Assembly (NCBI GenBank): GCA_016184305.1
Contig: JACPCX010000177.1
Coordinates: forward strand, 1 to 63,207
Direction: 5' to 3'
Length of the DNA stretch: 63,207 nucleotides
DNA from: Candidatus Rokuibacteriota bacterium
Lineage (GTDB): Bacteria > Methylomirabilota > Methylomirabilia > Rokubacteriales > CSP1-6
In this document: piece by piece, positions 6,641-26,936 of the stretch
Numbering within the stretch: the stretch's first letter is position 1
Layout of the letters: each line of letters starts with the position of its first letter
Made by a program: the position numbers and the translations under genes
The notes under the pieces: model-generated
The model's database searches: none
Seen by the model: the letters and a program-made list of their open reading frames with translations, nothing else
What the model was told of the DNA's origin: nothing

Positions 6641-6689
6641 AGAGGGCCCAAGACCTCCGGTAGCCTGACAGGCAAGGAGGAGACAGACC

Positions 6690-10757: not shown

Positions 10758-10773
10758 TATGACCTGCATCATA
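10758..10773. promoter_or_regulatory. Crp/Fnr-type operator upstream of the HCO/eNOR operon
   Basis: TATGA-CCTGCA-TCATA, same arms as the 6623 box. Confidence 0.7.
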
Positions 10774-11557: not shown

Positions 11558-11568
11558 AGGAGACAAGC

Positions 11569-13236
11569 ATGGAAGCCGTCTACAGAACCTGCGCGCAGAC
11601 CGGTCTCAAGGTCCACAACCACGCCGAGCGCCTCATCAGGGCGAACGCCGTGGCCGGCGTCGTCTCGATTCTCTTCGGCGGCATCGCGGCCATCCTGGTG
11701 CTGCTCACACGGTGGCCGGCAGTGCACCTGCTGGATCCCACCAGCTTCTACCGGGCGCTGACCTTCCACGGCATCAACATGCTCATCTTCTGGATCATCT
11801 TCTTCGAGGTCGCCGTCCTGTACTTCGCGGGCCCCATCGTGCTGGGCTCGCGCCTGGCCTGGCCCAGGATCGGGTGGGTCTCCTTCGTCCTCATGGTGGC
11901 GGGTACGCTCCTCATCAACATCGCCATCCTGCAGGGCAAGGCCGACGTGATGTTCACCTCCTACGCTCCGATGCAGGCCGCGTCCCACTTCTATCTCGGC
12001 TGGATCCTCTTCGCCGTGGGCGCGCTGGTCGCGGTCTGCAACTTCTTCGCGAGCCTCGTGGTGGCCAAGGCCGAGCGCACCTACACCGGCTCCATCCCGC
12101 TCGTCACCTTCGGGGCGGCCACCGCCGGCATCATCGCGGTCGTCACGCTGGCCCACGGTGCCATCATCTACATCCCCACCTGGCTCTGGTCGCTGGGGAT
12201 CATCGAGAAGATCGACCCGGGAATCTACCGCCTGATCTGGTGGGGCCTCGGCCACTCCTCGCAGCAGATCAACGTGACCGCCATGGTCAGCATCTGGTAC
12301 CTCCTGGCCACGCTCACCGTCGGCGCGACGCCCATCAACGAGAAGGTGTGCCGCTCGGCCTTCCTCCTCTACATCCTCTTCATCAACCTGGCCTCGGCCC
12401 ACCACCTGCTCGTGGACCCGCAGCTGTCCCCCGCGTGGAAGATCTGGAACACCAGCTACGGCATGTACCTGGCGGTGCTGGCCAGCATGATCCACGGCAT
12501 GACGGTGCCCGCCTCGGTGGAGGTGGCGCAGCGGAAGAAGGGCCTCACCAAGGGGCTCTTCGAGTGGCTCGCCAAGGCGCCCTGGGGCAATCCGGGCTTC
12601 GCGGCGCTCGCGCTGTCGCTCTCCCTCTTCGGCTTCATCGGCGGCATCACCGGCGTCACCTTCGGCGCCGAGCAGATCAACATCATCTCCCACAACACGC
12701 TCCGGATCACCGGCCACTTCCACGCCACCGTGGTGGCGGGCACGACGATCGCCTTCATGGGGCTCACCTACTACGTGGTGCCGCTCATCTTCCGGCGCCA
12801 TCTGATCTCCACGAAGCTCGCCACGGCGCAGATTTACCTCTTCGGCATCGGCATGACGATCTTCATCGGCGGCATGACGACGGCCGGCTCCTACGCCATC
12901 CCGCGGCGCCACTGGGACGTGCAGTTCGCCACGTCGCTCTTCCAGCCGCCGGTGGAGGCCGCAGCGTTCGCCTTCCTGGGCATCATGGGCGTGGGCGGAC
13001 TCTTCGCGCTCGCGGGCGGCGCTCTCTACGTGCTGATCACGGTGGGCTCGGTGCTCTTCGGGCGCCGCGTGCCTGACACCCCCGGCGCGGTCCCGCTGGC
13101 CGCCATGCCCCAGGACAAGGGGCAGCACGTGCCGATCAAGGGCACCACGGTCCTGGTCCTTGTCTTTCTCGCATCCTTCATCATCTACTACTTCCTCAAC
13201 TGGAAGTGGCTGGCCGCCATCTGGATCGTGAAGTGA
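11569..13236 (+). CDS. Heme-copper superfamily subunit I, eNOR-type nitric oxide reductase
   Basis: All six His present (LTFHG, GLGHSSQQ, SAHHL, TGHFHA). The HPEVY Tyr position is Gln. Confidence 0.85.
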   Translation: MEAVYRTCAQTGLKVHNHAERLIRANAVAGVVSILFGGIAAILVLLTRWPAVHLLDPTSFYRALTFHGINMLIFWIIFFEVAVLYFAGPIVLGSRLAWPRIGWVSFVLMVAGTLLINIAILQGKADVMFTSYAPMQAASHFYLGWILFAVGALVAVCNFFASLVVAKAERTYTGSIPLVTFGAATAGIIAVVTLAHGAIIYIPTWLWSLGIIEKIDPGIYRLIWWGLGHSSQQINVTAMVSIWYLLATLTVGATPINEKVCRSAFLLYILFINLASAHHLLVDPQLSPAWKIWNTSYGMYLAVLASMIHGMTVPASVEVAQRKKGLTKGLFEWLAKAPWGNPGFAALALSLSLFGFIGGITGVTFGAEQINIISHNTLRITGHFHATVVAGTTIAFMGLTYYVVPLIFRRHLISTKLATAQIYLFGIGMTIFIGGMTTAGSYAIPRRHWDVQFATSLFQPPVEAAAFAFLGIMGVGGLFALAGGALYVLITVGSVLFGRRVPDTPGAVPLAAMPQDKGQHVPIKGTTVLVLVFLASFIIYYFLNWKWLAAIWIVK

Positions 13237-13243
13237 GGCGGTC

Positions 13244-14668
13244 ATGCGCACATCGGGCCATCGCATCCCCTCTCCCTCCCTCGGGGGGGAGAGGGAGATC
13301 AGCTCGCTCACGGTCGTGCCGGCCGCCACCCGGCGGCTCCTGATCGGGTGGCTCTCGCTCGCGCTGGCGTCGTTGGTGGTGGCCGGCATCTTCGCCGCGA
13401 TCGCCGCCTTCGCGCGCACGCCGGTCGTCCACACCCTCTTCTCCCCCAACGCGTTCCGGCTGGCGCTGACCTCGCACGTCACCTTCGCCTTCACCGTCTG
13501 GTTCGTCACCTTCGCGGGCGTGCTCTGGATCTACGTGGCCTGGCGGTCCAACTACCCCCTGGGCGTCGGCGCCTCCTGGGCCGCGCTGTCCCTGGCCGCG
13601 CTGGGCTCGGCGGCCATGGCGGTGCCGGCCTTCCTGGCCTCGGGCCAGCCCTACCTCAACGACTATCTCCCCGTGATCGACCAGCCGTTTTTCTGGGCAG
13701 GCCTGGTCCTGGTGGCGGCGGGCTTGAGCCTGGAGGCCGCGGCCTATCTGGCCGCCGCACTCCAGGGCGAGCGCCGGGCGCGGCGCCAGGGCGCGGCAGC
13801 CGGCTCGCCCGAGGGGCTCGCCATGGCGGCGGGCGCCGTCGCCATGCTGCTCGCCGTCGCGGCCACCGTGCTCGCCTTCTGGCGCCTCGATCCGGCCCTG
13901 CCCTTCGGCTACTCGCTCCGCGCCCTCGTCTGGGGCGGCGGGCACATCCTCCAGTACCTGCATGTGACCGGCATGGCCACGGGGTGGATCGTCGCCATCT
14001 CGGTGGCCCTGGTCACCGTGTTTCCCGCGCGCCGCGTCCTCCGGATACTCCTCTGGGTGCTCCTGCCCTTCATGGCGGCGGCCACCGCCTCGTACCTGGT
14101 GTGGCGGCCCGAGGAGCTCCTCATCAACCACCTGATCACGATCCTCACCTTCGGCGGCCTCGGCGCCGCCGGGGTGCCCGTGTTCTTCATGGCGGCGAGC
14201 GCCGTGGTGGCGGCGGGGCGCCCGCTGCCGTGGGCGAGCCCGCTCTTCGGCGGCACCGTCGTCTCCTTCGCGCTCTACGCCATCGGCGGCGTCATGGGGC
14301 TCATCGGCTTCACCCAGGACACGCGAGTGCCGGCCCATTACCACGGCATGGTCGGCGCCGTGACGCTCGCCTACATGGGGCTCACGCCCATGCTGCTCGA
14401 GATCTGCGGCCGCCGCCCGTGGAGCGCGAGGCTCACCCGGTGGCAGCCCTATCTCTACGGCATCGGGCTCCTCGGCATCATGATCGGCATGCACTGGGCC
14501 GGCGGGCACGGCGCCCCGCGAAAGACCTTCGGCTTCACCTGGGCCACTGCGCAGGCCATCCTGGGGATGAACATCATGGGGGCCGGCTCCGTACTCGCGA
14601 TCCTGGGCGGGCTCGCCTTCGTGCTCAACATGGGAATCCCGCTCGTCACGCGGAGGCGCCAATGCTGA
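13244..14668 (+). CDS. Degenerate heme-copper subunit I paralog (COX1 fold)
   Basis: About 12 TM; LTSHVTF, WGGGHILQ, VPAHYHG, GAPRK. The HH pair is absent. Confidence 0.75.
   Translation: MRTSGHRIPSPSLGGEREISSLTVVPAATRRLLIGWLSLALASLVVAGIFAAIAAFARTPVVHTLFSPNAFRLALTSHVTFAFTVWFVTFAGVLWIYVAWRSNYPLGVGASWAALSLAALGSAAMAVPAFLASGQPYLNDYLPVIDQPFFWAGLVLVAAGLSLEAAAYLAAALQGERRARRQGAAAGSPEGLAMAAGAVAMLLAVAATVLAFWRLDPALPFGYSLRALVWGGGHILQYLHVTGMATGWIVAISVALVTVFPARRVLRILLWVLLPFMAAATASYLVWRPEELLINHLITILTFGGLGAAGVPVFFMAASAVVAAGRPLPWASPLFGGTVVSFALYAIGGVMGLIGFTQDTRVPAHYHGMVGAVTLAYMGLTPMLLEICGRRPWSARLTRWQPYLYGIGLLGIMIGMHWAGGHGAPRKTFGFTWATAQAILGMNIMGAGSVLAILGGLAFVLNMGIPLVTRRRQC
13268..13295. repeat. CCCTCTCCC..GGGAGAGGG palindrome at the 5' end of the paralog gene
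   Basis: CCCTCTCCC-N10-GGGAGAGGG, same family as the 7175 element. Confidence 0.55.
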
Positions 14669-15531
14669 TCGCCGCCTACGTCGAGTCGCTCAAGCTGCGC
14701 GTCGGCACCTTCATCGGCATGGCGGCGGTCCTCGGTTACATCGCCACGGCCCCCGCGGGTCTGGCGCTGCCGTCGCTGGCAATCCTCTTCGCCGTCACCG
14801 TCATGGCGGCGGGCGGCGCGGGCGCGCTGAACCATTTCCTCGACCGGGACCTCGACGCCCGGATGCCCCGCACCGCCAGGCGTCCCCTGCCCTCGGGGCG
14901 CATCCGCCACCCCTGGCACGTGGTGGCGCTGGGGCTGGGGCTCGTGATGCTCGCGGTGAGCCTGGCCCTGTGGCAGCTGAACCGGCTGGTCGCTCTTCAC
15001 GTGTTCCTCGGGGCCTTCACCTACGTGGTCGTCTACACGATCTGGCTCAAGCGGCGCTCCTGGCTCAACGTGGTGATCGGCGGACTGGCCGGCTCCTTCG
15101 CCGTGCTGGCGGGCGGCGCGCTGGCCCGCCCCGAGCTCTGCCTGCCGCCGGTCATCTTCGCCGCCGTGCTCTTCTTCTGGAGCCCGTCGCATTTCTGGTC
15201 TCTCGCCATCGCCTACAAGACCGAGTATGCGGGAGCCCTGATCCCCATGCTCCCCGCGGTCAAGGGAGAGGCCCGCACCGCCCGGAGCATCCTTCTCAAC
15301 ACGGTGGGGCTCCTGGCCTCGAGCCTCCTGCCCTTCGCCCTCGGCATGCTCGGCTGGGTCTACCTCGTCCTCGGCGTGCTGCTCGGTGGAGGACTCCTCC
15401 TGACTCGCAACCTGCAGCTCGCGCGCCGGCCGGGGGACCGAAGGCTCGCGCTCACCAACTTTCACGCCTCGAACCTCTTCCTCCTGCTCCTGTTCCTGGC
15501 CGTGGTCATCGACGTCGTGGCTCGACGCTAA
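14662..15531 (+). CDS. ctaB: Protoheme IX farnesyltransferase (heme O synthase)
   Basis: NHFLDRDLDARMPRTARRPLPSG, YTIWLKRRS, FWSPSHFWSLAI..EY..IPMLP. Confidence 0.93.
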   Translation: MLIAAYVESLKLRVGTFIGMAAVLGYIATAPAGLALPSLAILFAVTVMAAGGAGALNHFLDRDLDARMPRTARRPLPSGRIRHPWHVVALGLGLVMLAVSLALWQLNRLVALHVFLGAFTYVVVYTIWLKRRSWLNVVIGGLAGSFAVLAGGALARPELCLPPVIFAAVLFFWSPSHFWSLAIAYKTEYAGALIPMLPAVKGEARTARSILLNTVGLLASSLLPFALGMLGWVYLVLGVLLGGGLLLTRNLQLARRPGDRRLALTNFHASNLFLLLLFLAVVIDVVARR

Positions 15532-15684: not shown

Positions 15685-17208
15685 GTGCGCGCGGGAATCG
15701 GCCGGCAGATCAACATCGCCATCGGGGCGGGCTTCGCCCTCGTCCTCGTGGTGGGCGGAATCTCCGTGCTGCTGGCCTGGACCATCTCCGCGGGAGTTGA
15801 GGAGGGGCGGCACCGGCGGTTCGAGGTCGATGCCATCAACCGGATCCACAGCACCGTTCACCACTTCGTCGCTCACCTCCACCTGGCGCTCCTGGGCACT
15901 GCAGCGCCCGGGCACCCGTCCCCCGCGGAGATCCTCGACGAGCTGAAGCGGCGGATCGCCGCATACCATGCCTTCGAGCGGACCCAGGGGAGCGATGAGT
16001 CACGCCAGGAGCTGGGTCGCCTCTCGGAGCTGCAGGCCCTGGTGGCCCAGCTCGAGGTCGCCTCCCGAGCGGTGCTCGGGGCCCTTGGCCGAGGTCAGCC
16101 ACCCACCGCCGCCGAGGTGGTGGCCATCAACGAGCTGGCCCATGAGCGGGTCGCGGGAATCGTCCAGGAGCTGCACACCGTACACGAGCGGAAGCTCGAG
16201 CGCGCCATCGACGGAACCCAGCGGCGGATGTTCCTGATCTCGAGCTTGTACGTGACGTTCGCGGTGGGCGGCGCATCGCTGCTCCTCCTCGGCAACCGGT
16301 TCCTGTCCCGGCGCCTCGTCTCGCCCATCGGCCGTCTCGCCCAGGCTGCCCTGCGCATCGCCGGTGGCGACCTCGCCCAGCGCGTTCCCGTCCGATCCGG
16401 GGACGAGGTGGGGCGGCTCTCCCGGGCGTTCAACGTCATGACCGAGCGCCTGGAGGCGCACGAGGCCGAGCGGCTGAACTTTCAGGCGGAGCTCGAGCGG
16501 CAGGTCAAGGAGCGAACGCGCGAGCTCGAGGACACCGCAGCAAGGCTCCAGGCCACGCAGGCCGAGCTCATCCGGTCCGAGCGGATCGCCGTGACGGGCC
16601 AGATCGCGGCCGGGGTCACGCACGAGATCCGCACCCCCCTCAACTCCCTCGCGATCAACGTCCAGCTGCTCCGCCGGGAGCTCTCGGCCGAGGCCGCCCC
16701 GGCGTCGCTGCGCGAGGCCCTCGGCACCTTCGCCATGGTGGAGTACGAGATCACGCGGATCAACCGGATCCTGGAGGAGTTCGTCAGGTTCGCGCGTCTC
16801 CCGGCGCCGCGGTTCGAGACCGTCGAGATCGGCGCCCTCCTGCAGGAGATCCTTGGGCTGCTGGGCCCCCAGGCGGCCAGGGCCGGCGTGCGCCTCGAGG
16901 CCCGGCGGCTCTCGCCGGGGGCCGCCGTGAGAGGGGATCCGGATCAGCTGCGCGAGGTCTTCCTCAACCTGGGCCAGAACGCGCTGCAGGCCATGCCGAA
17001 CGGGGGCGCGCTCGGCCTGGAGGTGACCCGGGAGGCGATCTTCGTTCCCTTCGTCAGCAGCAAGGCCGACGGTCTCGGCCTCGGGCTTCCCATCGTCAAG
17101 CGGATCGTCGAGGAGCACGGGGGAAGCGTGTCGTGCCAGAACCGTGTCGGGGGCGGGGCCAGCTTCCTCGTCCGGCTTCGCGCCGCCGGGCCCTCCACCG
17201 GGGGGTGA
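15685..17208 (+). CDS. HAMP sensor histidine kinase; ATPase domain lacks the G1 box
   Basis: 2 TM, HAMP, HEIRTPLN, N box LNLGQNALQAM, then directly IFVPF and GLGLGL. Confidence 0.8.
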   Translation: MRAGIGRQINIAIGAGFALVLVVGGISVLLAWTISAGVEEGRHRRFEVDAINRIHSTVHHFVAHLHLALLGTAAPGHPSPAEILDELKRRIAAYHAFERTQGSDESRQELGRLSELQALVAQLEVASRAVLGALGRGQPPTAAEVVAINELAHERVAGIVQELHTVHERKLERAIDGTQRRMFLISSLYVTFAVGGASLLLLGNRFLSRRLVSPIGRLAQAALRIAGGDLAQRVPVRSGDEVGRLSRAFNVMTERLEAHEAERLNFQAELERQVKERTRELEDTAARLQATQAELIRSERIAVTGQIAAGVTHEIRTPLNSLAINVQLLRRELSAEAAPASLREALGTFAMVEYEITRINRILEEFVRFARLPAPRFETVEIGALLQEILGLLGPQAARAGVRLEARRLSPGAAVRGDPDQLREVFLNLGQNALQAMPNGGALGLEVTREAIFVPFVSSKADGLGLGLPIVKRIVEEHGGSVSCQNRVGGGASFLVRLRAAGPSTGG

Positions 17209-17211
17209 GCG

Positions 17212-18561
17212 GTGGAACACCTCATCCTCCTGGCCGAGGACGATTCCCACACGCGCGAGGGCCTGCGCCGGGCCATGACGCGGGCCGGGTACCGGACGCT
17301 GACGGCAGCTGACGGGGGGGCGGCCCTCGCCATCCTGAAGTCGGAAGCCGTCGATGTTCTCCTCTCCGACCTGAAGATGCCGGGCGTGGACGGCATGGCC
17401 CTGCTCGACCGGGTCCGGGCCGATTTTCCGGAAACGGCCGTGATCATCCTCACGGGCTTCGCCACCGTCGGCCTCGCCGTCGAGGCGATGAAGAAAGGCG
17501 CCTACGACTTCCTCACCAAGCCCATCGATCTCGGCAAGCTCGAGCTTCTGCTGGGGCACGCCCTGGAGGCCCGGAGACTCACCCGGGAGAACCGCGAGCT
17601 CAGGCTCCGCCTGCGCGAGACCGCCGGGCTCAAGCCGCTCCTGGGTCGCTCCGCCGCCATGCAGCGCCTCCGGGAGACGATCGAGCTGGTGGCCGCCACC
17701 GATGCGGCGGTCCTGGTCCTCGGGGAAAGCGGCACGGGGAAGGAGCTGGCGGCGCATGCCATTCACTACGGCGGGGCGCGGGCCGAGCGCCCCTTCGTCA
17801 AGGTGAGCTGCGCCGCGCTTCCCGACGGGCTGCTCGAGTCGGAGCTGCTCGGTCACGAGCGCGGGGCCTTCACCGGCGCCCGGGACCGACGCAAGGGCCG
17901 GTTCGAGCTGGCCCACGGGGGCACGCTGTTCCTGGACGAGGTGGGAGACATGAGCCCCCAGACCCAGGCGAAGCTCCTCCGCGTCCTCCAGGAGCGGGAG
18001 TTCGAGCGGGTGGGCGGGACGGACACGATCCGCGTGGACGTCCGGCTCATCACCGCCACCAACCGCGACCTCGAGGGCCTCGTGGCCGAGGGCGCGTTCC
18101 GCGAAGATCTCTACTACCGGCTGAATGTCGTTCCCCTCCGGATGCCGCCCTTGCGCGAGCGCGTCGAGGACATCCCGGCCCTGACGGCGCATTTCCTCGG
18201 CGCCTGCGCCGAGCGGTGGGGCAAGCCCATCCCGGAACCGACCCCCGAGGCCCTGGCGCTCCTCTGCCGCTACTCCTGGCCCGGCAATGTCCGCGAGCTG
18301 CAGCACGTCGTGGAGTCCATGCTCGTGTTCTCGCGGGGCGGCCCGATTGCGGCCGAGGACCTCCCTCCTGCCATTCGGGGCGACGAGAGGACTCCCGATC
18401 CGGCAGAGCGCCACTCCGGAGCCACGCTCCGGAACCTTGAGCGCCAGGCTGTCGCCCGGACGCTTCTCGCCACCGGCGGGAACCGGCGCAAGGCGGCCGA
18501 GATCCTGGGGATCGGGCTCAAGACCCTCTATCGGAAGATCCAGGAGTTCCATCTCCGGTAG
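17212..18561 (+). CDS. sigma54-dependent response regulator (NtrC/AtoC family)
   Basis: REC (EDD, SDLKMP), GESGTGKE, GAFTGA, LDEV, Fis HTH. Confidence 0.95.
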   Translation: MEHLILLAEDDSHTREGLRRAMTRAGYRTLTAADGGAALAILKSEAVDVLLSDLKMPGVDGMALLDRVRADFPETAVIILTGFATVGLAVEAMKKGAYDFLTKPIDLGKLELLLGHALEARRLTRENRELRLRLRETAGLKPLLGRSAAMQRLRETIELVAATDAAVLVLGESGTGKELAAHAIHYGGARAERPFVKVSCAALPDGLLESELLGHERGAFTGARDRRKGRFELAHGGTLFLDEVGDMSPQTQAKLLRVLQEREFERVGGTDTIRVDVRLITATNRDLEGLVAEGAFREDLYYRLNVVPLRMPPLRERVEDIPALTAHFLGACAERWGKPIPEPTPEALALLCRYSWPGNVRELQHVVESMLVFSRGGPIAAEDLPPAIRGDERTPDPAERHSGATLRNLERQAVARTLLATGGNRRKAAEILGIGLKTLYRKIQEFHLR

Positions 18562-18619
18562 AAGTCTCCGAAGCTGCCTCCTGTCTCCTCCCGCCCGCGG
18601 CCGCGTGGCCGGTAGCCCT

Positions 18620-18664
18620 TGTCATCTTGACCGCAACGGACTGGCCCGGCGAGTCGTTTTGACA
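18620..18664. promoter_or_regulatory. Paired bEBP enhancer sites
   Basis: TGTCATCTTGAC and GTCGTTTTGACA, about 3 helical turns apart, 100-140 bp upstream of the sigma54 promoter. Confidence 0.55.
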
Positions 18665-18763
18665 AACCCGGCTGCCGCGGCTCCCCCCCGGACATTCGCT
18701 CTCTGCCGCCCAGGGCCCCGTGCTTGAAGCGGTTCTGGCGCCGGAGCCTCGTGTCGCCTCACG

Positions 18764-18779
18764 TGGCACCCCCTGTGCT
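18764..18779 (+). promoter_or_regulatory. sigma54 promoter
   Basis: TGGCACCCCCTGTGCT (GG-N10-GC). Confidence 0.65.
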
Positions 18780-18797
18780 GGTGGGACTGGCACTGCG

Positions 18798-19178
18798 ATG
18801 AGACAGCCGGAGTCGATCCTGGTCGTGTCGCCAGATGCCACCAGCCTGCAGGGGCTGACGCGAGTGCTCCTGCAGGGGGGGCTGCCGGTGACCGCGGCCC
18901 TGGGGTGGGCCGAGGGGGAGTCCCGGCTCCAGCGAGTTCCCGTCTCTCTGCTCGTCGCGGACATCGAGGAGGTGGGCCCTGAGGAGCTGATCCTGCTCCG
19001 CCGCCTGCGGGCCGGGTTTCCTCACGTGGGGATCATCGCGCTGGTCTCCCTCTCCACCTCGGAGGCCCGGGCGGCCAAGGCCGAAGGCCTCGTGCTGGCC
19101 ATCCTCGACAAGCCCATCGCTCTCGCCCAACTGGAGGAGGCCGTGAGCTCGGCCCTCTCCCGCAAGGCCTTGCGGTGA
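18798..19178 (+). CDS. Atypical single-domain receiver protein
   Basis: ILVVSPD..LLVADIE..LDKP. The first acidic pair is degenerate. Confidence 0.6.
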   Translation: MRQPESILVVSPDATSLQGLTRVLLQGGLPVTAALGWAEGESRLQRVPVSLLVADIEEVGPEELILLRRLRAGFPHVGIIALVSLSTSEARAAKAEGLVLAILDKPIALAQLEEAVSSALSRKALR

Positions 19179-19327
19179 ACATCATCCTGGCCTCGCCCTG
19201 GCGGCGACGCTCCTGCTGGCCTGGGGCCGGGGATTCATGATCGAGCCCGTGGTGAAGGAGCATGAGGGTGCCGCGGGGGTACGGAGGAGCGACGGGGAGC
19301 ACACCACCGAGAAAAGGGGGACGAACG

Positions 19328-20089
19328 ATGAAGGACGCATTAGTAGGCATTTGGACCTGTATCTGGCTGCTGGCGACCGGACTTGCCCTCACCGGCACCG
19401 TCATGGCACAGACCGCATCGCCGAGCAGCGTGGCCATCGGCGGGCAGCTCTACGATAAGTGGTGGAAGGCGGTACCCGGCGTGAAGCCGCCCGACGGCAA
19501 CCATCCCCTGTGGGCATCGCAATCCACGAACAAGCGGAAGGGGCTGGACACGTGGCGGTGCAAAGAGTGCCACGGGTGGGATTACAGGGGGAAGGATGGT
19601 GCCTACGGCTCTGGCTCCCACAAGACAGGCTTCCCAACGGTCATGGGCGCGCAGACCATGAGCGTGGCCCAGCTCAAAGCCATCCTGAAGGGCTCCACCA
19701 GTGGCAAGCACGATTTCTCTCCATTCCTGGATGACACCGCCCTGACCAACCTCGCGGCCTTCCTGAAGCATGGGCTGGTGGATCTGCCCGGGGCCATTGA
19801 CGCCAAGGCGAAGAAGCCCGCGAAGGCGGACATGGCCCGCGGCAAGCAGTTGGCCGTCGTCTGCACCGTCTGCCACGGTCCCGAGGGGAAGACACTGAAC
19901 TTCGGGAAGCCGGGCGAACCTGAGTACGTCGGGACGGTGGCCAAAGAGAATCCCTGGGAGTTCTTGCACAAGGTCCGCGTCGGCCAGCCGGGCTCGGAGC
20001 CTGCCATGCCCACGGGAGTGGAGCTCGGGTGGAGTCTGCAAGATGTCCTCGACGTCTTGGCCTATTCCCAGACCCTCCCTGACAAGTGA
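19328..20089 (+). CDS. Periplasmic diheme cytochrome c
   Basis: Signal peptide, CKECH and CTVCH, distal Met (PAMP). Confidence 0.9.
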   Translation: MKDALVGIWTCIWLLATGLALTGTVMAQTASPSSVAIGGQLYDKWWKAVPGVKPPDGNHPLWASQSTNKRKGLDTWRCKECHGWDYRGKDGAYGSGSHKTGFPTVMGAQTMSVAQLKAILKGSTSGKHDFSPFLDDTALTNLAAFLKHGLVDLPGAIDAKAKKPAKADMARGKQLAVVCTVCHGPEGKTLNFGKPGEPEYVGTVAKENPWEFLHKVRVGQPGSEPAMPTGVELGWSLQDVLDVLAYSQTLPDK

Positions 20090-20325
20090 GACAAGGAGAA
20101 CGGTCTCCCCTGAGGCGAGCAGCGATGCCGACCTCAGCCGAAGGGGCGAGCCGAGCCCTCGGATGGTGGAGAGGCAAACAGGCACACACTCTGGCGCGCG
20201 GCTTAGAGCAATCGGGCTCTTGTTGCTCTCTTGTCGCCGGGGGCGGCCTTCGCTGGCCGTCCGCCGGACACCGAGGAGACGGGCACGGTGGAGACTGAAA
20301 TGAACCCCCGGTGGGGAGGAGCGCC

Positions 20326-21165
20326 ATGCTGACCTGGACGGGGCGAGCCGTCGTGGTGGGTCTCACCCTTCTCGCCCTGGGCGCCCCTCCCTCCCCCCCC
20401 GCAGCTGCGGGGGAGGAAGAGACGGAGGCGGTGAGCCTGCCCGCGACCCTGATCACCGAGGGCGCCGTGCCCGGCACCGAGGTGGAGGGAAGCTTCACCA
20501 TGTCGAAGGCCGAGACGGAGTGGGGGTACGTCTTCGGCCTAAGCAGTCTCCAGTATGCGCCCGTGCCGTCCTTCGGCGTCAAGCTGGTGCTTCCGGTGGT
20601 CGTCCGCGACCCAGTGGGCTCCGAGCCCACCGAGGCCGGCATGGGCGATGTGGGCCTCATGCTTAAATACGCCCCCGTGCTGCTGCCCGCCAAGCAGTTC
20701 GCCCTTGCCGGAGGTCTGGCCCTGACCTTGCCCACGGGGAGCGAACGGCGGGAGCTGGGCGGGCAATTCGCCGTGGCGCCCTTCCTCGCCGCGGGCAAGG
20801 GGCTAGGCGCCTGGAGCCTCCAGGCGGATGTCGCCTATCGCTGGCAGCTCAACGACCCGCGGGAGCTCGAGCCCGAGGAGGAGGGGGGCGAGCCGGTGAG
20901 GCCTCACAAGGAGCATGGCGTCACGGCCAACCTTACCGTGACCTATTCGCCCCTGAAGTGGCTGGCCGCGCTGCTCGAGCTGAACAGCGTGACGGTGCTC
21001 CACCGGGGCGAGCCTCTGACAGAGCGGGTGCAACTCTACCTGACCCCCGGAGTGAGCGTGGAGCCGGCCGCGGGGTGGAATCTCCGGGCCGGGGTCCACC
21101 TCCCGGTGACGAGCGCCAGGGAGGTCGACTGGAGCCTCATCGTCATCCTCACCCGAGGCTTCTAG
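20326..21165 (+). CDS. Outer-membrane beta-barrel / MetA-phenol-degradation-like transporter family
   Basis: Signal peptide, GMGDVGLMLKY, LTLPTG, alternating beta strands, C-terminal Phe. Confidence 0.7.
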   Translation: MLTWTGRAVVVGLTLLALGAPPSPPAAAGEEETEAVSLPATLITEGAVPGTEVEGSFTMSKAETEWGYVFGLSSLQYAPVPSFGVKLVLPVVVRDPVGSEPTEAGMGDVGLMLKYAPVLLPAKQFALAGGLALTLPTGSERRELGGQFAVAPFLAAGKGLGAWSLQADVAYRWQLNDPRELEPEEEGGEPVRPHKEHGVTANLTVTYSPLKWLAALLELNSVTVLHRGEPLTERVQLYLTPGVSVEPAAGWNLRAGVHLPVTSAREVDWSLIVILTRGF

Positions 21166-21172
21166 CCGCGCC

Positions 21173-21200
21173 CATCACGCGCCGCGCGCGGCGCGTGATG
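21173..21200. repeat. Perfect 28-bp palindrome after the barrel gene
   Basis: CATCACGCGCCGCGCGCGGCGCGTGATG is its own reverse complement. No U-tract follows. Confidence 0.8.
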
Positions 21201-21524
21201 CTGGCGCTCATCGCGGCTGCGCTCTTCCAGCTCCGGGCCGGGCTGATGCTCGCCGTCCGGGAGTGGGTGAGACACGGTGACGACACGTGGTCACGCTCGG
21301 TGACGCGAGCGTCCTCATCCTGCGCGATAGGCAGAAGACAGGCCGGCTCCGCCATGCCCCCGAGAGCGGCCCTTTCGAGCTCAACCGGGACGAGGCCGCC
21401 AGGCGCCCGCGCTTCACGTTCAGCCCCGGAGTCAAGCCCGTGATCCGCCTTGCGTGGGGCCGTCGGGCGCCGCCTTGCTCCTGGGCCTTTTCTTGAGCGG
21501 CCTGGGTGGCGGGGCAGCAGCCTG

Positions 21525-23090
21525 CTACGAGGGGCCCGGCACCGCCTCGGCCGCGGGCAGAAGCCCCGCGGCGGGTAGCTCCCGGAGCTCCAGGATCAGC
21601 GCATCGAGGCGAGCCGCCGTGTGGCGGGAGTACTCGTACAGGTGCTTGTGCATCAGCGCGAGCGTGACGGCGTCCCGGATGGCGCGGGGGCGCCGGAGGG
21701 CCGTCTCCAGGACCATGGAGAGCGTCAGCCAGGCGCGGCGCGGCGAGGCGTTGAGCACGCAGGCCCAGACGATGCGGAGCAGCAGCGTGAGATCGCCGGG
21801 CGTGGTCGCGAGCCGGGATGTGCGGAGCGCCCCCCGCCCCAGGATCAGCGCCATGGCGCGCCTGCGGTAGTTCCCGTAGTCGTAGAGCCGCTCCAGCAGC
21901 CTCCGGTAGCCCTCGTAGAGCTCCAGGCGTGACATGCCCTTGGGGATGATGTTGGTGAAGACGAACTGGTCCCCCACCGACTCGGCGATGAGCCGGCCGG
22001 CCGCCTTGAGCCGATCGTAGAGCGGCGTCTTGGGCACGGCATTGAGCATCCCGGTCATGGAGATGGGGATGCGGGCGGCCTGGATGAAGCGGAACTGCTC
22101 CTCGAAGATCTCCGGGTCGTCGCTGTCGAATCCCACGATCATCCCGGCCATGACCTCGATGCCGGCGGCCTGGATGCGGTGGACCGAGGTGAGGATGTCC
22201 TCCCGCATGTTCTGCGTCTTCCCGGTGGACTCGAGACTGGCTCTCCGCGGCGACTCGATGCCCACGAAGATGGTCGAGAAGTCGGCCCGCCTCATGAGCG
22301 CCAAGAGCTCGTCGTCCTGGGCCACGTTGAGGGACACCTCGGTCATGAACTCCACGGGGTAGCCGTTGGCCTCCTGCCACGTGGCCAGCGCCAGCAGCAG
22401 CTTCTTGGCTTCCTTCTTGTTGCCGATGAAGTTGTCGTCCACCACGAAGATGTTCCGCACGCCGAGCCGGTGGATTTCCTCCACCTCGGCCATGACCTGC
22501 TCCACCGACTTGGTGCGCGGGCGGCGGCCGTACATGACGATGATATCGCAGAAGTCGCAGTTGAAGGGGCAGCCGCGGGCGAACTGGATGGCCATGCTGC
22601 GGTAGCGCCCGATCTTGAGGAGGTCGAAGCGCGGCAGCGGCGAGTCCAGCATGCTGGGCTTCTCCTCCTGCCGGTACTCCGCCTGCCACGCGCCGGCCTC
22701 ATACTCCCGGATGAATTGCGGCCAGGTGTACTCGGCCTCGTCCACGAAGAGCACGTCCACGCGCCCGCGCAGCTCGTCGGGGCAGAGCGAGGCGAAGGGG
22801 CCGCCCGCCACCACGAACTTCCCGCGCCGGCGAAGCTCCTCGATGATCTCGAACATCCGCGTCTTGTGGACCACGTAGCCCGTGACGCCCACGATGTCGG
22901 CGTCGGTGTCGAAGTCTATGGACTCGACGTTCTCGTCGCAGAGGACGATCTCATGCCCCGCGGGCGTGAGCGCCGCCACCGTGGGGAGCGAGAGGTTGGG
23001 GAAGGCGCAGCGCTTGCCGAGGCTCGGCAGGATGCGGTCGAAGGTCCAGAAGGACTCGGGATTCCTTGGCGCGATCAGGTAGATCTTCAC
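21525..23090 (-). CDS. B12-binding radical SAM protein (class B, DUF4070; HpnP-related family)
   Basis: RGCPFNCDFC, VDDNFIGN, GIES, N-terminal cobalamin-binding domain. Confidence 0.9.
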   Translation of the reverse strand: MKIYLIAPRNPESFWTFDRILPSLGKRCAFPNLSLPTVAALTPAGHEIVLCDENVESIDFDTDADIVGVTGYVVHKTRMFEIIEELRRRGKFVVAGGPFASLCPDELRGRVDVLFVDEAEYTWPQFIREYEAGAWQAEYRQEEKPSMLDSPLPRFDLLKIGRYRSMAIQFARGCPFNCDFCDIIVMYGRRPRTKSVEQVMAEVEEIHRLGVRNIFVVDDNFIGNKKEAKKLLLALATWQEANGYPVEFMTEVSLNVAQDDELLALMRRADFSTIFVGIESPRRASLESTGKTQNMREDILTSVHRIQAAGIEVMAGMIVGFDSDDPEIFEEQFRFIQAARIPISMTGMLNAVPKTPLYDRLKAAGRLIAESVGDQFVFTNIIPKGMSRLELYEGYRRLLERLYDYGNYRRRAMALILGRGALRTSRLATTPGDLTLLLRIVWACVLNASPRRAWLTLSMVLETALRRPRAIRDAVTLALMHKHLYEYSRHTAARLDALILELRELPAAGLLPAAEAVPGPS

Positions 23091-23310: not shown

Positions 23311-23324
23311 ATGATCTGGGTCAT
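23311..23324. promoter_or_regulatory. Crp/Fnr-type operator in the divergent region before SCO
   Basis: ATGA-TCTGGG-TCAT. Confidence 0.6.
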
Positions 23325-23441
23325 AACGCCCGGCGCACCGACGCCGTCACACTGATCCATGGAGGGCTTCGGTCACGCGACGGACAGGGAAGCGATGATG
23401 AGTCTACCGGTGAGGAGGCCCCGAGGGGTCATGTTGATCTC

Positions 23442-24326
23442 ATGGTGAGCGCGCTGTTCTCCCACCGGCTCTTCGCGCCGTCGCTGGTCCTGGGCATCTT
23501 CGGCCTCGGGGCGCTGACGGTGGCCTTCCTCCTCTTCGGTCCGGGCATGGCGCCGTGGGCCGACACGCTCCTCACCGCCTGCTTCGGCTGGAACGCCGAG
23601 ACCCGCCACTATCGCCTCGACTCCCTCATCCTGACGCTGCTGCAGCCGCCGCTCTTCGTCGCGGTCGTCTCCTTCTTCTACCCGGACGAGCTGCGGGCAT
23701 TCCTCCGGTCCCACGCCGGACGCGTCCTCGCGGGCACCACGCCGGCGCTGTTCCTCGCGCTCGCCGCCTCGCTCCTGGCCACCAGCGAGATCTCGGCCTC
23801 GGGTGTGGCGCCGGCCCCGGCGGGGCTGGCAGCGCCGCTGCGCCAGGGCGGCCCGGCCCCCGCGTTCTCGCTGACCGACCATCGGGGGCGCACGGTGTCG
23901 CTCGGGAGCTTCAAGGGCCGCCCCGTGGCCATGACGTTCGTCTACGCGAACTGCCACGCCACCTGCCCGATCCTCATCCAGAGACTCAAGGCCATCGAGG
24001 CAAGAACGGCGCCCGGCGCGGCCGCCTTCGTGGCCGTGAGCCTGGACCCGGAGCGCGACACTCCAGGTGCCCTTGCCCACGCGGCCCACCAGTGGGAAGT
24101 CGGGGAGCGGTGGCACCTGCTCAGCGGCCCCACCGAGGCCGTGCGCGCTGTCCTCCGCGCCTACGGCGTCCAGTGGGCGCCGCTCCCCGAGGGCGAGATC
24201 GCCCACGACAATCTCGTGCTCCTCATCGACGCGCGGGGACGGCTGGCATTCACGTATCGCGGGCTCGCGCACCCGGAGGACCGCCAGGTGGCCGACCTTG
24301 CTCGGCTCGCGAGAGAGCAGGGCTAG
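23442..24326 (+). CDS. SCO1/SenC copper chaperone with N-terminal membrane domain
   Basis: YANCHATCP (CxxxC), SLDPERDT, IAH. Confidence 0.9.
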   Translation: MVSALFSHRLFAPSLVLGIFGLGALTVAFLLFGPGMAPWADTLLTACFGWNAETRHYRLDSLILTLLQPPLFVAVVSFFYPDELRAFLRSHAGRVLAGTTPALFLALAASLLATSEISASGVAPAPAGLAAPLRQGGPAPAFSLTDHRGRTVSLGSFKGRPVAMTFVYANCHATCPILIQRLKAIEARTAPGAAAFVAVSLDPERDTPGALAHAAHQWEVGERWHLLSGPTEAVRAVLRAYGVQWAPLPEGEIAHDNLVLLIDARGRLAFTYRGLAHPEDRQVADLARLAREQG

Positions 24327-24330
24327 GCCC

Positions 24331-26010
24331 ATGTACTCTCCCGGGTCGCGAGAGCCCGCCGCGGCGGGCCCCGCCGAGGGTGCGCCCACGCCGCCGCCGC
24401 GCCCGGCGCCCCGGGCGGTCCCCTTCACCATCTTTCCCGCTCCCAGCCGGCCCACGGAACCTCTCCACCGCCGCGGGCTCGCCGCGGTGGGTATGGCCTA
24501 TCAGTGGGTTGAGGTGCTGCTCGACCGCCTGGTCTCGGCGCCGCTGAACCCGCTCTATCACAGCGGGACCATCGCGGTGTTCTCGCTGGCGGTGGCGCTC
24601 GTGACCGGCATCTATCTCTTCCTCTTTTATCGGGTCGGCACGGATGCCGCGCATCAGTCCATCGAGGGCATCATGGCGCACCCCCTGGGGATCGGGTCGC
24701 TGATGCGCTCGCTCCACCGTTATTCCTCGGATGCGGCCATGCTGGCCGCGGCGCTCCACGGCCTCAAGATGTTCCTCACCGACCGGTTCTGGGGCGCGCG
24801 GTGGATCGGCTGGGTCACGGGGCTCACCCTGCTGGCGCTCGTCTGGGTCACGGGCGCCACGGGCTACTGGCTCGTGTGGGACACGCAGGCCCAGGTGCTC
24901 TCCGTGACCTCGGCGAAGCTCCTCGACGTGCTGCCGGTCTTCGGCGAGCCGCTGATCCGCACCTTCCTCGATGCGGGCCGCATCCAGAACTTCCTCTTCT
25001 TCGTTGTCCTCTTCATCCACATCACCATCCCGATCCTGCTCGGGGTGGCCTACTGGATGCACGTCATGCGCCTCTCGCGCGCGCGCTTCATGCCGCCGCG
25101 CGTGGTCCTGTGGGTGACGGGGGCCGCGCTCGTGATCGCCAGCGTGCTCCGGCCGGGGCTCTCGGGCCCGCCCGCCGATCTCGGGCGGTTGCCCGGCATC
25201 GTCCCGCTGGACTGGTTCTACTTCTTCTATTTCCCGCTGACGCGGCTCGATCCGCTCTGGGGCTGGGGCATCGTCGGCGTCGGGAGCGTCGTCACGCTCG
25301 CCGTGCCCTGGGTGCTGCGCGGGGCCGCGCCGCCGCGGGCGAAGGTGGAGAACCCCGCCTGCACGGGCTGCACCCGCTGCTGGAAGGACTGCCCCTACGA
25401 GGCCATCATCATGGTCCCGCGTCCGGCCGACGGCAGCCGCTACAAGCAGATGGCGGTGGTGAACCCCGCCAAGTGCGTGGGCTGCGGCATCTGCGTGGGC
25501 GCCTGCGACTCCGCCGGCATCCTCCTCGGCGACCAGCCCGTGAGCCTGCTGGGCCAGGCCGTGGCGAGCCGGCTGCGCAGCGTGGCCGCGGCCTCGGGCG
25601 GCCAGGCCCCGGTGCTCGTCTACACCTGCCGGCTCATGCGCGGGCTCCAGGGCCGGCTCAGGGCCGACGGGACCCTCGAGGGACTCCCGGGCGTCACGGT
25701 CATGGGCCTCCCCTGCGTGGGCACGCTCCACCCGGACATGATCACCAAGTCCCTCGAGGCCGGCGCCCGCGGCATCTTCGTGGCCGGCTGCGTCCCCGAG
25801 GACTGCCCGTACCGCGAGGGCAGCCTCTGGCTCGCCGAGCGCCTCCAGGGGCAGCGTCTGCCCTCCCTCAAGACGTTGCCCGAGGGCCGCCTGCGGGTGC
25901 GCTGGTACTCCCCCGTGGAGGTGGGACGCTTCCTCGCCGAGCTCCGCGCCTTCCAGCGCCAGCTTCCCGCCGGAGCGGGGACGCCGCGGACCGAGGCGGT
26001 CCAGGCATGA
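24331..26010 (+). CDS. Cytochrome b (N-terminal) + 2x[4Fe-4S] + MvhD/FlpD [2Fe-2S] fusion
   Basis: RSLHRYSSD..ALH, FIHITIP..WMH, CTGCTRCWKDCP, CVGCGICVGAC, PCVG..GC.PEDCPYREG. Confidence 0.85.
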   Translation: MYSPGSREPAAAGPAEGAPTPPPRPAPRAVPFTIFPAPSRPTEPLHRRGLAAVGMAYQWVEVLLDRLVSAPLNPLYHSGTIAVFSLAVALVTGIYLFLFYRVGTDAAHQSIEGIMAHPLGIGSLMRSLHRYSSDAAMLAAALHGLKMFLTDRFWGARWIGWVTGLTLLALVWVTGATGYWLVWDTQAQVLSVTSAKLLDVLPVFGEPLIRTFLDAGRIQNFLFFVVLFIHITIPILLGVAYWMHVMRLSRARFMPPRVVLWVTGAALVIASVLRPGLSGPPADLGRLPGIVPLDWFYFFYFPLTRLDPLWGWGIVGVGSVVTLAVPWVLRGAAPPRAKVENPACTGCTRCWKDCPYEAIIMVPRPADGSRYKQMAVVNPAKCVGCGICVGACDSAGILLGDQPVSLLGQAVASRLRSVAAASGGQAPVLVYTCRLMRGLQGRLRADGTLEGLPGVTVMGLPCVGTLHPDMITKSLEAGARGIFVAGCVPEDCPYREGSLWLAERLQGQRLPSLKTLPEGRLRVRWYSPVEVGRFLAELRAFQRQLPAGAGTPRTEAVQA

Positions 26011-26552
26011 CCGGGCCCGTCTTCGAGCCCCGCCGCCCGCCCCTGGCCTGTCTCGCGGGCTTCGCGCTCCTGCTCACCGCCGTCTCCTGGGGGCTCGGCG
26101 CCTTCGCCGCCTTCCCCTGGGCCGCCTCCGACCCGCAGAGCGCGGTGGTCCGCGTGGCCGTCAAGCACGTCGCCTCCTTCGAGCACGAGGCCGCCGCGCG
26201 GTCGAAGGAGGAGATCGAGAAGCTCCCCCGCCACATGCGCCCGCAGAGCCCCGAGGGCTCGCGAACCGGCCGCCGCGTCCGGAGCCTGCTCAGCCTGGCG
26301 GTGGACGGCCAGCCGCAGCTCCGGAAGAGCTATTCGCCGGGCGGCCTCCGCGGCGACGGCCCCACCTTCGCCTACGAGGAGGTCTCCGTGGCTCCCGGCC
26401 GCCGCCGGCTCCAGGTCACCCTCGCCGACGGCCACGCCGACCGGGACCAGGAGCGGCCGCGCCGCTGGACGCTCGAGCAGGACGTGGAGATCAAGCCGGG
26501 GCAGGCGCTGCTGATCGAGTTCTCCGAGGACGCCGGGCTCACGCTCCGGTAA
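26007..26552 (+). CDS. Membrane-anchored hypothetical protein
   Basis: Overlaps the previous stop (ATGA). N-terminal hydrophobic helix, LPRHMR motif. Confidence 0.7.
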   Translation: MTGPVFEPRRPPLACLAGFALLLTAVSWGLGAFAAFPWAASDPQSAVVRVAVKHVASFEHEAAARSKEEIEKLPRHMRPQSPEGSRTGRRVRSLLSLAVDGQPQLRKSYSPGGLRGDGPTFAYEEVSVAPGRRRLQVTLADGHADRDQERPRRWTLEQDVEIKPGQALLIEFSEDAGLTLR

Positions 26553-26922: not shown

Positions 26923-26936
26923 CCACAGGAGGCCCC

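What the first reader, a model, noticed from the sequence alone, without database searches (positions are those of the whole stretch)
23442..26552. Cytochrome b-ferredoxin-MvhD fusion beside SCO: possible dedicated electron-donor module for eNOR
Seen: four heme-b His, two CxxCxxCxxxC clusters and an MvhD/FlpD-type Cys set in one polypeptide. It is co-oriented with a CuA chaperone and a membrane-anchored partner, behind the same ATGA-N6-TCAT box as the eNOR operon, with no Rieske or cytochrome c1 gene. Known: MvhD normally partners HdrA. Inference: an uncharacterised route between the quinone pool or cytoplasmic Fe-S carriers and the NO reductase (or its maturation), bypassing bc1.
Basis: partly seen in the sequence, partly recalled or inferred. 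Interest (0 to 1): 0.72.

Follow-up and report, generated by a model that had tools for sequence, protein, structure and literature searches.

The report
Cytochrome b/iron-sulfur partner of eNOR
Three co-transcribed genes encode a copper chaperone, a membrane cytochrome b fused to cytoplasmic iron-sulfur domains and a small periplasmic protein; this widespread, untested set almost always sits beside one type of nitric-oxide reductase and probably wires it to the cell interior.

Summary
Window 24493-26010 (perhaps starting at 24331) encodes one polypeptide: a bc1-type cytochrome b (helices A-F, four haem His), two CxxCxxCxxxC clusters and an MvhD/FlpD domain. A 3-TM SCO gene precedes it, and an overlapping gene for a TM anchor plus beta-sandwich follows.

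The "partner" gene is the split-off C-terminal domain of the family; it is fused in most other phyla.

Link to eNOR:
- 67 of 80 related loci from many phyla carry a Gln-type (eNOR) haem-copper subunit I within 8 kb. Nine of the other 13 are cut by contig ends, three have a Tyr-type oxidase, and one has none.
- In three lineage samples every genome with the fusion has eNOR (18, 13 and 7 genomes).
- The converse fails. One eNOR subclade (six genomes) and one further genome lack SCO and the fusion.

In this window a 7.9-kb insert splits the operon, and each half keeps an ATGA-N6-TCATA box.

Function is untested. Best reading: a transmembrane electron wire supplying eNOR. The main rival is a reductase for CuA/FeB maturation.

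A 2026 preprint describes such genes in one genus as "rather unusual". This scan has reported the family before on other genomes. The genome has two ordinary Rieske/cytochrome b pairs elsewhere.

The parts
23311..23324 (.). ATGA-N6-TCAT(A) box, 131 nt upstream of the SCO start; candidate CRP/FNR-type site
   Evidence: same box type conserved before eNOR subunit II in relatives
23442..24326 (+). SCO1/SenC copper chaperone with a 3-TM N-terminal domain (invariant C47 in a CFGW motif; C171-x3-C175 and H255 Cu ligands)
   Evidence: Pfam; alignment A4; hydropathy
24331..26010 (+). Cytochrome b (helices A-F) - 2x[4Fe-4S] - MvhD fusion; conserved core starts at 24493 (505 aa), likely start ATG 24331 (559 aa)
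26007..26552 (+). TM anchor + periplasmic beta-sandwich; split-off C-terminal domain of the family, start overlaps the fusion's stop
   Evidence: (48 blastp hits, all in the fusion cluster)
10759..10772 (.). ATGA-N6-TCAT(A) box upstream of the eNOR operon
11030..11557 (+). eNOR subunit II with CuA motif (CNEFCGIGHHQM)
   Evidence: Pfam COX2; sequence
11566..13236 (+). eNOR subunit I (GHSSQQ: Gln at the cross-linked-Tyr position)
   Evidence: criterion from PMC8756737 section 2.7.1
13244..14668 (+). HCO subunit-I paralogue (GHILQY, a single His where subunit I has the HH pair)
14665..15531 (+). Haem O synthase (CtaB/CyoE)
   Evidence: NCBIfam TIGR01473, 256 bits, over cut-off; frame read
15685..23090 (.). 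Inserted block that splits the operon: histidine kinase, sigma-54 activator, receiver protein, dihaem cytochrome c, outer-membrane-like protein, B12/radical-SAM gene (minus strand)
   Evidence: Pfam; relatives have 3.3-5.4 kb between eNOR I and the fusion, against 11.3 kb here
5367..6068 (+). CRP/FNR-family regulator, candidate binder of the boxes
   Evidence: Pfam, NCBIfam (below cut-offs); a CRP-family gene lies within 8 kb in 21 of 80 loci

Best explanation
SCO, the cytochrome b-2[4Fe-4S]-MvhD protein and the anchored beta-sandwich are a conserved redox accessory of the eNOR-type NO reductase. That much is shown by comparative genomics.

The mechanism below is inferred. The fusion is a membrane-spanning electron wire. 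A cytoplasmic partner at the NAD(P)H or ferredoxin level reduces the exposed MvhD-type [2Fe-2S] centre. Electrons then pass through the two [4Fe-4S] clusters to haem bH, then to haem bL at the periplasmic face. From there they reach the CuA domain of eNOR subunit II, directly or via cytochrome c, SCO-bound copper or a complex held together by the beta-sandwich.

The retained Qo-type ef loop (PLDWFY, Asp invariant) leaves exchange with the quinone pool open. In this genome the three genes form their own transcription unit, co-regulated with eNOR through a shared box.
For: Adjacency:
- 67 of 80 loci have a Gln-type HCO I within 8 kb, mostly 2.5-3.8 kb upstream on the same strand.
- By best tblastn hit, SCO starts 0.57-1.11 kb upstream in 66 of 80 loci.
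- The beta domain lies directly after MvhD in 55 of 80 loci.

Co-occurrence:
- Phylum sample: 18 of 151 genomes have the fusion, and all 18 are among the 20 with eNOR.
- Order of G152: the same 13 of 151 genomes have both, on the same contigs.
- Class of G151: 7 of 101 have the fusion, and all 7 have eNOR.

Topology:
- The AF2 model has pLDDT 89 and pTM 0.87, with six TM helices. Foldseek aligns about 285 residues to bc1 cytochrome b.
- Arg-rich loops lie on the Fe-S side (read from the sequence).
- The two Cys of the beta domain are present or absent together (A3), as expected for a periplasmic disulfide.

Periplasmic electron carriers:
- A C-terminal cytochrome c domain is fused in P0149 and P0155 (CxxCH visible).
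- A cytochrome c gene lies directly upstream in the three Chloroflexi loci.

Cytoplasmic NAD(P)H link:
- A paralogue with the architecture cytochrome b-Fer2-FAD-NAD occurs in L021 and L059.
- A NuoF-like gene lies between two fusion paralogues in L027 (Pfam); a same-cluster ORF holds that place in L052.

Context: hemerythrin, NirS, NosR-like, Rrf2 and CRP genes recur in 19, 15, 12, 8 and 21 of the 80 loci.

The Ferrigenium preprint reports both cytochrome b proteins in a denitrifying proteome (section 6.5.2).
Against: - No functional data exist.
- Six genomes of one class carry a 44-45% identical HCO I and lack the fusion. The four inspected show GHGSQQ and no SCO or fusion within about 8 kb. 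G124 also lacks them. So eNOR can exist without the module.
- The module travels with biogenesis genes (SCO, haem O synthase), which fits a maturation role.
- No cytoplasmic partner gene is conserved in the operon, and none lies in this window's cluster.
- An outward electron path would cancel the charge separation expected from eNOR's proton channel.
- The 80 loci are the best 80 of 517 confirmed relatives, so more distant members may sit in other contexts.
Confidence: 0.5

Rival explanations
1. Maturation reductase. The wire carries cytoplasmic electrons outward to keep the SCO cysteines or copper, or iron destined for FeB, reduced during assembly of CuA/FeB. It would work like NOX/FRE/STEAP-type metalloreductases or MsrQ.
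For: SCO is directly upstream in at least 66 of 80 loci. The long SCO type has its own 3-TM domain with an invariant Cys (A4). The module comes and goes together with SCO, haem O synthase and the paralogue: the minimal COX2-COX1 operons lack all of them. NorQ-type genes are nearby in the Nitrospirota loci. The cytochrome b-Fer2-FAD-NAD variant has the logic of NADPH-driven transmembrane reductases.
Against: Cytochrome c domains and genes attached to the family suggest respiratory electron flow. By recall, SCO proteins of other oxidases work without such a partner. The proteins are detectable in a shotgun proteome, which is unusual for an assembly factor.
Confidence: 0.27
2. Rieske-less bifurcating quinol oxidase. 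Quinol is oxidised at the retained Qo-type pocket. One electron goes to eNOR, and the other runs through bL, bH and the Fe-S clusters to reduce NAD(P)+ or ferredoxin.
For: Asp240 of the PEWY-like loop is invariant in 32 of 32 sequences. The fold matches bc1 cytochrome b through helix F. NAD(P)H-type modules are attached to paralogues. The preprint proposes NO-driven NAD+ reduction.
Against: No Rieske-like high-potential acceptor is identified. The beta-sandwich has no conserved metal ligands (A3). Most hosts are heterotrophs with little need for reverse electron flow. The cd1-helix motif of Qo sites is not conserved (read).
Confidence: 0.13
3. Haem A(s) supply. The wire serves haem A synthesis for eNOR, either as electron relay to CtaA or as an oxygen-independent route.
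For: eNOR carries haem As, and many eNOR operons have CtaA (PMC11214002). CtaB lies in this operon. CtaA lies nearby in 6 of 80 loci. The preprint raises the anoxic haem A problem.
Against: No specific evidence supports this. The periplasmic domains and cytochrome c fusions are unexplained by it.
Confidence: 0.05
4. A general respiratory cytochrome b with no special tie to eNOR; adjacency is incidental.
For: Three Chloroflexi loci pair it with a Tyr-type oxidase, and one locus (L008) has no HCO within 4.2 kb upstream.
Against: Co-occurrence and adjacency hold in three distant lineages. In the phylum sample, 0 of 131 genomes without an eNOR-type hit have the fusion.
Confidence: 0.02

Closest known systems
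Cytochrome b of Rieske/cytochrome b complexes (bc1; b6 plus subunit IV of b6f)
   Same: Pfam PF00033. Four His as two H-x13-H pairs. Helices A-F with a PEWY-like ef loop. Foldseek top hits are bc1 cytochrome b over about 285 residues.
   Different: No Rieske or c1 partner in the operon. Helices G and H are missing. Asp replaces Glu in the loop. A cytoplasmic 2[4Fe-4S]+[2Fe-2S] extension sits where bc1 has only the Qi side.
Cytochrome b/[Fe-S] proteins of the Ferrigenium straubiae eNOR operon (bioRxiv 10.64898/2026.01.22.701106; section 6.5.2 read)
   Same: The same gene kind in the same operon context: one cytochrome b-[Fe-S] protein and one cytochrome b-[Fe-S]-FAD-NADH protein beside eNOR, sco1 and haem O synthase. 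Burkholderiales loci L021 and L059 show both forms.
   Different: The preprint calls them 'rather unusual' and treats them as Ferrigenium markers. Here they are found across many phyla. This window has the MvhD form only, with the beta domain split off and the operon interrupted.
MvhD / C-terminal ferredoxin-MvhD module of HdrA2; QmoC-type cytochrome b-FeS fusions
   Same: The FlpD domain matches solved MvhD (5odc_D, E 8.5e-9). The Fd+MvhD stretch matches the HdrA2 C-terminus (NF040770, positions 570-768, below cut-off). By recall, QmoC likewise joins a membrane cytochrome b to a cytoplasmic Fe-S domain.
   Different: No HdrA, hydrogenase or Qmo genes are nearby. The membrane part is bc1-type, not NarI/HdrE-type.
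NOX/FRE/STEAP and MsrQ-type transmembrane dihaem reductases (functional analogy, recalled)
   Same: A cytoplasmic low-potential donor, two stacked b haems and an acceptor outside the membrane. The Fer2-FAD-NAD paralogue repeats that logic.
   Different: Unrelated fold and family. The acceptor here is unknown.

Membership tests
Cytochrome b (Rieske/cyt b complexes) | Four conserved His binding two b haems in helices B and D | tested here: met
   H75, H89, H176, H190 invariant in 32/32 sequences; PF00033 at 69 bits against a cut-off of 27
Cytochrome b (Rieske/cyt b complexes) | Encoded and working with a Rieske [2Fe-2S] subunit | tested here: not met
   No Rieske gene in the cluster. The genome's Rieske hits are on contigs C141, C173, C160 and C45; two of them are adjacent to the other cytochrome b genes
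Cytochrome b (Rieske/cyt b complexes) | Full eight-helix core or b6+subunit IV, with a PEWY Qo loop | tested here: inconclusive
   Six TM helices A-F in the AF2 model. The loop reads PLDWFY with invariant Asp. Quinol binding is not testable here
MvhD/FlpD | FlpD domain with the Cys set of the [2Fe-2S] centre | tested here: met
   PF02662 at 55 bits against a cut-off of 22. C379, C408, C433 invariant. C408/C433/C438 align to Cys of 5odc_D. That these Cys are the cluster ligands is recalled
MvhD/FlpD | Partner HdrA or a hydrogenase | not tested
   None in the window's cluster. The genome was not searched for HdrA
eNOR (adjacent haem-copper enzyme) | Gln in place of the cross-linked Tyr in subunit I | tested here: met
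   GHSSQQ in window 11566-13236; criterion from PMC8756737
eNOR (adjacent haem-copper enzyme) | CuA-binding subunit II | tested here: met
   CNEFCGIGHHQM plus an upstream His in 11030-11557; COX2 Pfam hit
eNOR (adjacent haem-copper enzyme) | NO reductase activity, haem As | not testable with these tools
   Biochemistry exists only for the Rhodothermus marinus enzyme (PMC11214002)
SCO1/SenC | Thioredoxin fold with CxxxC and a distal His | tested here: met
   PF02630 at 80 bits; C171, C175, H255 invariant in 24/24 sequences
NarI/HdrE/QmoC-type cytochrome b-FeS | NarI-type dihaem membrane fold | tested here: not met
   Pfam and Foldseek assign the membrane part to bc1-type cytochrome b

The most novel reading that the evidence does not exclude
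A Rieske-less Qo-type bifurcation. Quinol is oxidised at the conserved PLDWFY pocket. The high-potential electron goes to NO via SCO/CuA. The low-potential electron is driven through bL, bH, two [4Fe-4S] clusters and the MvhD [2Fe-2S] centre to make reduced ferredoxin or NAD(P)H. NO respiration would then directly generate low-potential reductant.
Probability: 0.13. Interest if true: 0.9.

Novelty: new variant of a known kind. Interest (0 to 1): 0.6.

Why it matters
eNOR is a widespread N2O-producing enzyme. [quoted passage not shown]

A conserved cytochrome b/Fe-S/SCO module inside most operons of one large eNOR clade is the obvious candidate for its electron input or its metal-centre maturation.

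The module also offers a natural case of a bc1-type cytochrome b working without a Rieske protein.

Tried and rejected
- Complex prediction on cytochrome b residues 1-285 plus SCO gave no verdict (score 0.00 in two runs, controls not folded). It counts neither way.
- Foldseek of the beta-sandwich model against the PDB gave no hit at E <= 0.001. Pfam, NCBIfam and the ESM Atlas gave no named family for it.
- P0200, a database protein with SCO fused in front of the cytochrome b, was first taken as a Rosetta-stone link. It has no TM helix between the two parts, which conflicts with the topology, so it may be a frameshift or calling artefact. It is not used as evidence.
- ORF 14970-15647 was a wrong frame. 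The real gene there is haem O synthase.
- The shuffle-based enrichment of the box was downgraded after the genome-wide count.
- Read laying: the contigs are too short to bridge the left junction of the insert. One RNA-library contig (245 nt, 1 mismatch, 25252-25496) covers part of the fusion gene. DNA carry-over cannot be excluded, so expression is not shown.
- Literature searches found no paper other than the Ferrigenium preprint that describes this fusion beside eNOR. Figures and supplements were not seen (PNAS SI Fig. S1 and datasets; Fig. 5 of PMC6431628; the preprint's tables). They may show these genes.
- The N-terminal 98 residues of ORF 26643 looked by eye like an ABC-ATPase remnant. 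Pfam found nothing there.
Full report
**What is there**

The window has 70% G+C, so genes were picked by third-position G+C. Three co-oriented genes fill 23442-26552.

- Gene 1 (23442-24326, 294 aa) is an SCO1/SenC protein (Pfam 80 bits). It has three N-terminal hydrophobic segments.
- Gene 2 has a conserved core at 24493-26010 (505 aa). The core contains Cytochrome_B PF00033 (res 11-195), a 2x[4Fe-4S] ferredoxin (res 282-340) and FlpD/MvhD PF02662 (res 392-491). An in-frame ATG at 24331, 4 nt after the SCO stop, would add a Pro/Ala-rich 54-residue extension. Close homologues of 554-559 aa begin the same way, so 24331 is the likelier start.
- Gene 3 (26007-26552, 181 aa) starts inside the stop codon of gene 2 (ATGA). 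It has one TM segment and no Pfam or NCBIfam family.

Names attached to close homologues place the organism in Methylomirabilota/Rokubacteria.

**Anatomy of the fusion**

In 32 diverse family members the following are invariant: the four haem His (H75/H89 and H176/H190, each H-x13-H), both CxxCxxCxxxC motifs, three MvhD Cys, and Asp240 of a PEWY-like loop, PLDWFY.

AlphaFold2 on that alignment gives pLDDT 89 and pTM 0.87, with six TM helices followed by the Fe-S domains. Foldseek's best PDB matches are bc1 cytochromes b over about 285 residues. The membrane part is therefore cytochrome b helices A-F including the Qo-side ef loop.

The C-terminal part aligns with solved MvhD (5odc_D). Query Cys 408, 433 and 438 fall on MvhD Cys. 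It also resembles the C-terminus of HdrA2, below cut-off.

Arg-rich loops follow helices B, D and F (sequence). This puts the N-terminus and the Fe-S domains in the cytoplasm, as in bc1.

**The 'partner' is a split domain**

Most relatives are about 690-730 aa. Their extra C-terminus is a TM helix plus a domain homologous to gene 3. All 48 blastp hits of the gene-3 protein in the locus set fall in the fusion's own cluster. By tblastn it lies directly after the MvhD part in 55 of 80 loci.

In Rokubacteria and many Proteobacteria it is a separate ORF, overlapping or adjacent to the fusion gene.

Its model (pLDDT 91) is a beta-sandwich with no PDB match at E <= 0.001. Two Cys are present together or absent together across 39 sequences. 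No metal-ligand set is conserved. This fits a periplasmic structural or docking domain with an optional disulfide.

**Family size and context**

- The family has 1628 proteins at E <= 0.001 among the candidates scored in the word-indexed search.
- It has 420 cluster representatives at E <= 1e-30.
- It has confirmed relatives in 517 species genomes. The 80 best loci were fetched. They span Methylomirabilota, Myxococcota, Bacteroidota/Rhodothermales, Nitrospirota, Verrucomicrobiota, Chloroflexi, Alpha-, Beta- and Gammaproteobacteria and one archaeal MAG.

I called ORFs crudely and clustered them. The recurring order is subunit II (about 175 aa), subunit I (about 570 aa), optionally a subunit-I paralogue and haem O synthase, then SCO, then the fusion with or without the beta gene. 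Cluster identities were confirmed against the window's proteins and Pfam.

By tblastn, 67 of 80 loci have a subunit I with GHxxQQ within 8 kb. This motif has Gln at the cross-linked-Tyr position, the criterion for eNOR in PMC8756737 (section 2.7.1). The other 13 loci divide as follows:
- Nine have less than 3 kb upstream of the fusion. Five of them show a truncated subunit-I ORF at the contig edge.
- Three Chloroflexi loci have a Tyr-type oxidase (GHPxVY) and a cytochrome c gene directly upstream.
- One locus (L008) has no HCO or SCO in the 4.2 kb upstream that the contig holds.

Other recurrent neighbours, counted in the 80 loci:
- CRP/FNR regulators: 21 loci
- hemerythrin: 19
- cd1 nitrite reductase: 15
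- cytochrome c: 13
- NosR-like: 12
- Rrf2: 8
- CtaA: 6

The 80 loci are the most query-like of 517, and kin are not independent.

**Co-occurrence in whole genomes**

*Phylum of the window (151 genomes including G000).* The fusion occurs in 18 genomes. An eNOR-type subunit I (>= 56% identity) occurs in 20, and all other hits are <= 34%. All 18 fusion genomes are among the 20. Of the two without the fusion:
- G061 breaks off at a contig end inside SCO (L090).
- G124 truly lacks SCO and the fusion for 5.6 kb downstream (L089).

None of the 131 genomes without eNOR has the fusion. That tally includes one genome flagged unpublished (G100).

*Order containing a Bradyrhizobium isolate (151 genomes).* The same 13 genomes have both genes, on the same contigs.

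*Class of a Rhodothermales MAG (101 genomes).* Seven genomes have the fusion, and all seven have eNOR at >= 66% identity. Six more carry a 44-45% identical subunit I and lack the fusion. In the four inspected, the motif is GHGSQQ and the operon is only subunit II, subunit I and an unknown 259-aa gene. SCO, the paralogue, haem O synthase and the fusion are all missing.

So the fusion implies eNOR, but not every eNOR has the fusion.

**This window's peculiarity**

The eNOR genes lie at 11030-15531:
- subunit II with a CuA motif
- subunit I with GHSSQQ
- a paralogue with GHILQY and a single His where subunit I has the HH pair
- haem O synthase

The SCO unit starts only at 23442. Between them lie a histidine kinase, a sigma-54 activator, a receiver protein, a dihaem cytochrome c, an outer-membrane-like protein and a divergent B12/radical-SAM gene.

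In relatives the gap from the end of subunit I to the start of the fusion is 3.3-3.4 kb. In the same-genus genome G037 it is 5.4 kb. Here it is 11.3 kb. A contig from a second sample of the same study covers 23035-23581 without a difference, so the right junction is not a one-off misassembly.

Each half has an ATGA-N6-TCATA box, at 10759 and 23311. A third stands before a DUF2249/DUF1858 gene, at 6625. The bare 14-mer is not rare: the genome holds 70 copies, mostly in coding sequence. However, a box lies 227-280 nt before subunit II in L005, L006, L007 and L090, and not in L089. A CRP/FNR regulator is encoded at 5367-6068. Co-regulation is therefore likely but not shown.

**Mechanism**

Every conserved cofactor lies on one line: MvhD [2Fe-2S], two [4Fe-4S], haem bH, haem bL, then the periplasmic face where the SCO and beta-sandwich domains sit.

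Variants attach NAD(P)H-type modules at the cytoplasmic end. L021 and L059 carry a paralogue with the architecture cytochrome b-Fer2-FAD-NAD. L027 has a NuoF-like gene between two fusion paralogues (Pfam), and L052 has a same-cluster ORF in that place. Other variants attach cytochrome c at the periplasmic end (P0149, P0155, the Chloroflexi loci).

I therefore favour an electron wire that feeds eNOR from cytoplasmic reductant, at about 0.5. A maturation reductase for SCO/CuA/FeB is the main rival (0.27). It is favoured by the module travelling with biogenesis genes and by its absence from minimal eNOR operons. Qo-type bifurcation (0.13) would be the most remarkable outcome.

The genome has two ordinary Rieske/cytochrome b pairs, so the module is an addition and not a substitute.

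**What is in print**

- The Ferrigenium straubiae preprint (section 6.5.2 read in full) lists eNOR II, eNOR I, haem O synthase, sco1 and a 'scaffold' gene as common. It calls two cytochrome b/[Fe-S] genes 'rather unusual', proposes a quinol:NAD+ supercomplex, and reports the proteins in a proteome.
- PMC6431628 (passages) notes SCO in the 'ba3-a1' (eNOR) operon of magnetospirilla.
- PMC11214002 (passages and section 7) does not mention these genes in its main text.
- My six searches found nothing else. Figures and supplements were not seen.
- This scan has reported the same family beside eNOR on other genomes at least nine times. Those notes appeared after my own counts and are not independent evidence.

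Noticed in passing
window 13244-14668: Subunit-I paralogue directly after eNOR I. It reads GHILQY at the active-site helix and has one His where the HH pair should be. Paralogues of this kind (GHxxQ[FVLY]) recur in many of the 80 loci. It may be the preprint's 'eNOR scaffold protein'.
   Followed up: partly
window 21525-23090 (minus strand): B12-binding radical SAM gene with DUF4070, divergent from SCO. Its best NCBIfam matches are all below cut-off (TIGR04013 family, PhpK, BchE types). Two genes of the same cluster lie near the fusion in L037. A link to anaerobic cofactor chemistry for eNOR is conceivable.
   Followed up: no
window 5972-10559: Upstream of the eNOR operon lie two ORFs with weak, partial COX1 matches (5972-6538 and 7819-9123, both below cut-off). 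Between them is a DUF2249/DUF1858/TusA-like gene (6701-7822). A radical-SAM plus FeS_assembly_P ORF follows (7923-10559). The first of the three TCATA boxes precedes this group.
   Followed up: no
L058, L065, L074 (Chloroflexi): Here the fusion (737-756 aa, with a different C-terminus) follows a Tyr-type (GHPxVY) haem-copper oxidase and a small cytochrome c gene. So the family is not strictly tied to the Gln-type enzyme.
   Followed up: partly
L085-L088 (four genomes of the class of G151): A distinct eNOR subclade (GHGSQQ, 44-45% identical) has a minimal operon: subunit II, subunit I and an unknown 259-aa protein without a Pfam family. No SCO, paralogue, haem O synthase or fusion is present.
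   Followed up: partly
L027, L052 (Nitrospirota): Two tandem fusion paralogues flank a gene that is NuoF-like in L027 (Pfam) and of the same cluster in L052. Rhodanese-like, subunit-I paralogue and NorQ-type genes follow.
   Followed up: partly
window 26643-26936: The ORF holding the URO-D-like gene (Pfam from about residue 166) begins with 98 residues that look by eye like the end of an ABC-transporter ATPase. Pfam finds nothing there. It may be a gene remnant or an over-extended ORF.
   Followed up: partly
window 25252-25496: A 245-nt contig from a sediment metatranscriptome library matches with one mismatch. This is a weak hint that a near-identical gene is transcribed; DNA carry-over is not excluded.
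   Followed up: partly
G000 contigs C58:3244, C62:3738, C72:11068, C106:5886: These are the only other genomic copies of the box that also read TCATA. They could be further members of the same regulon.
   Followed up: no
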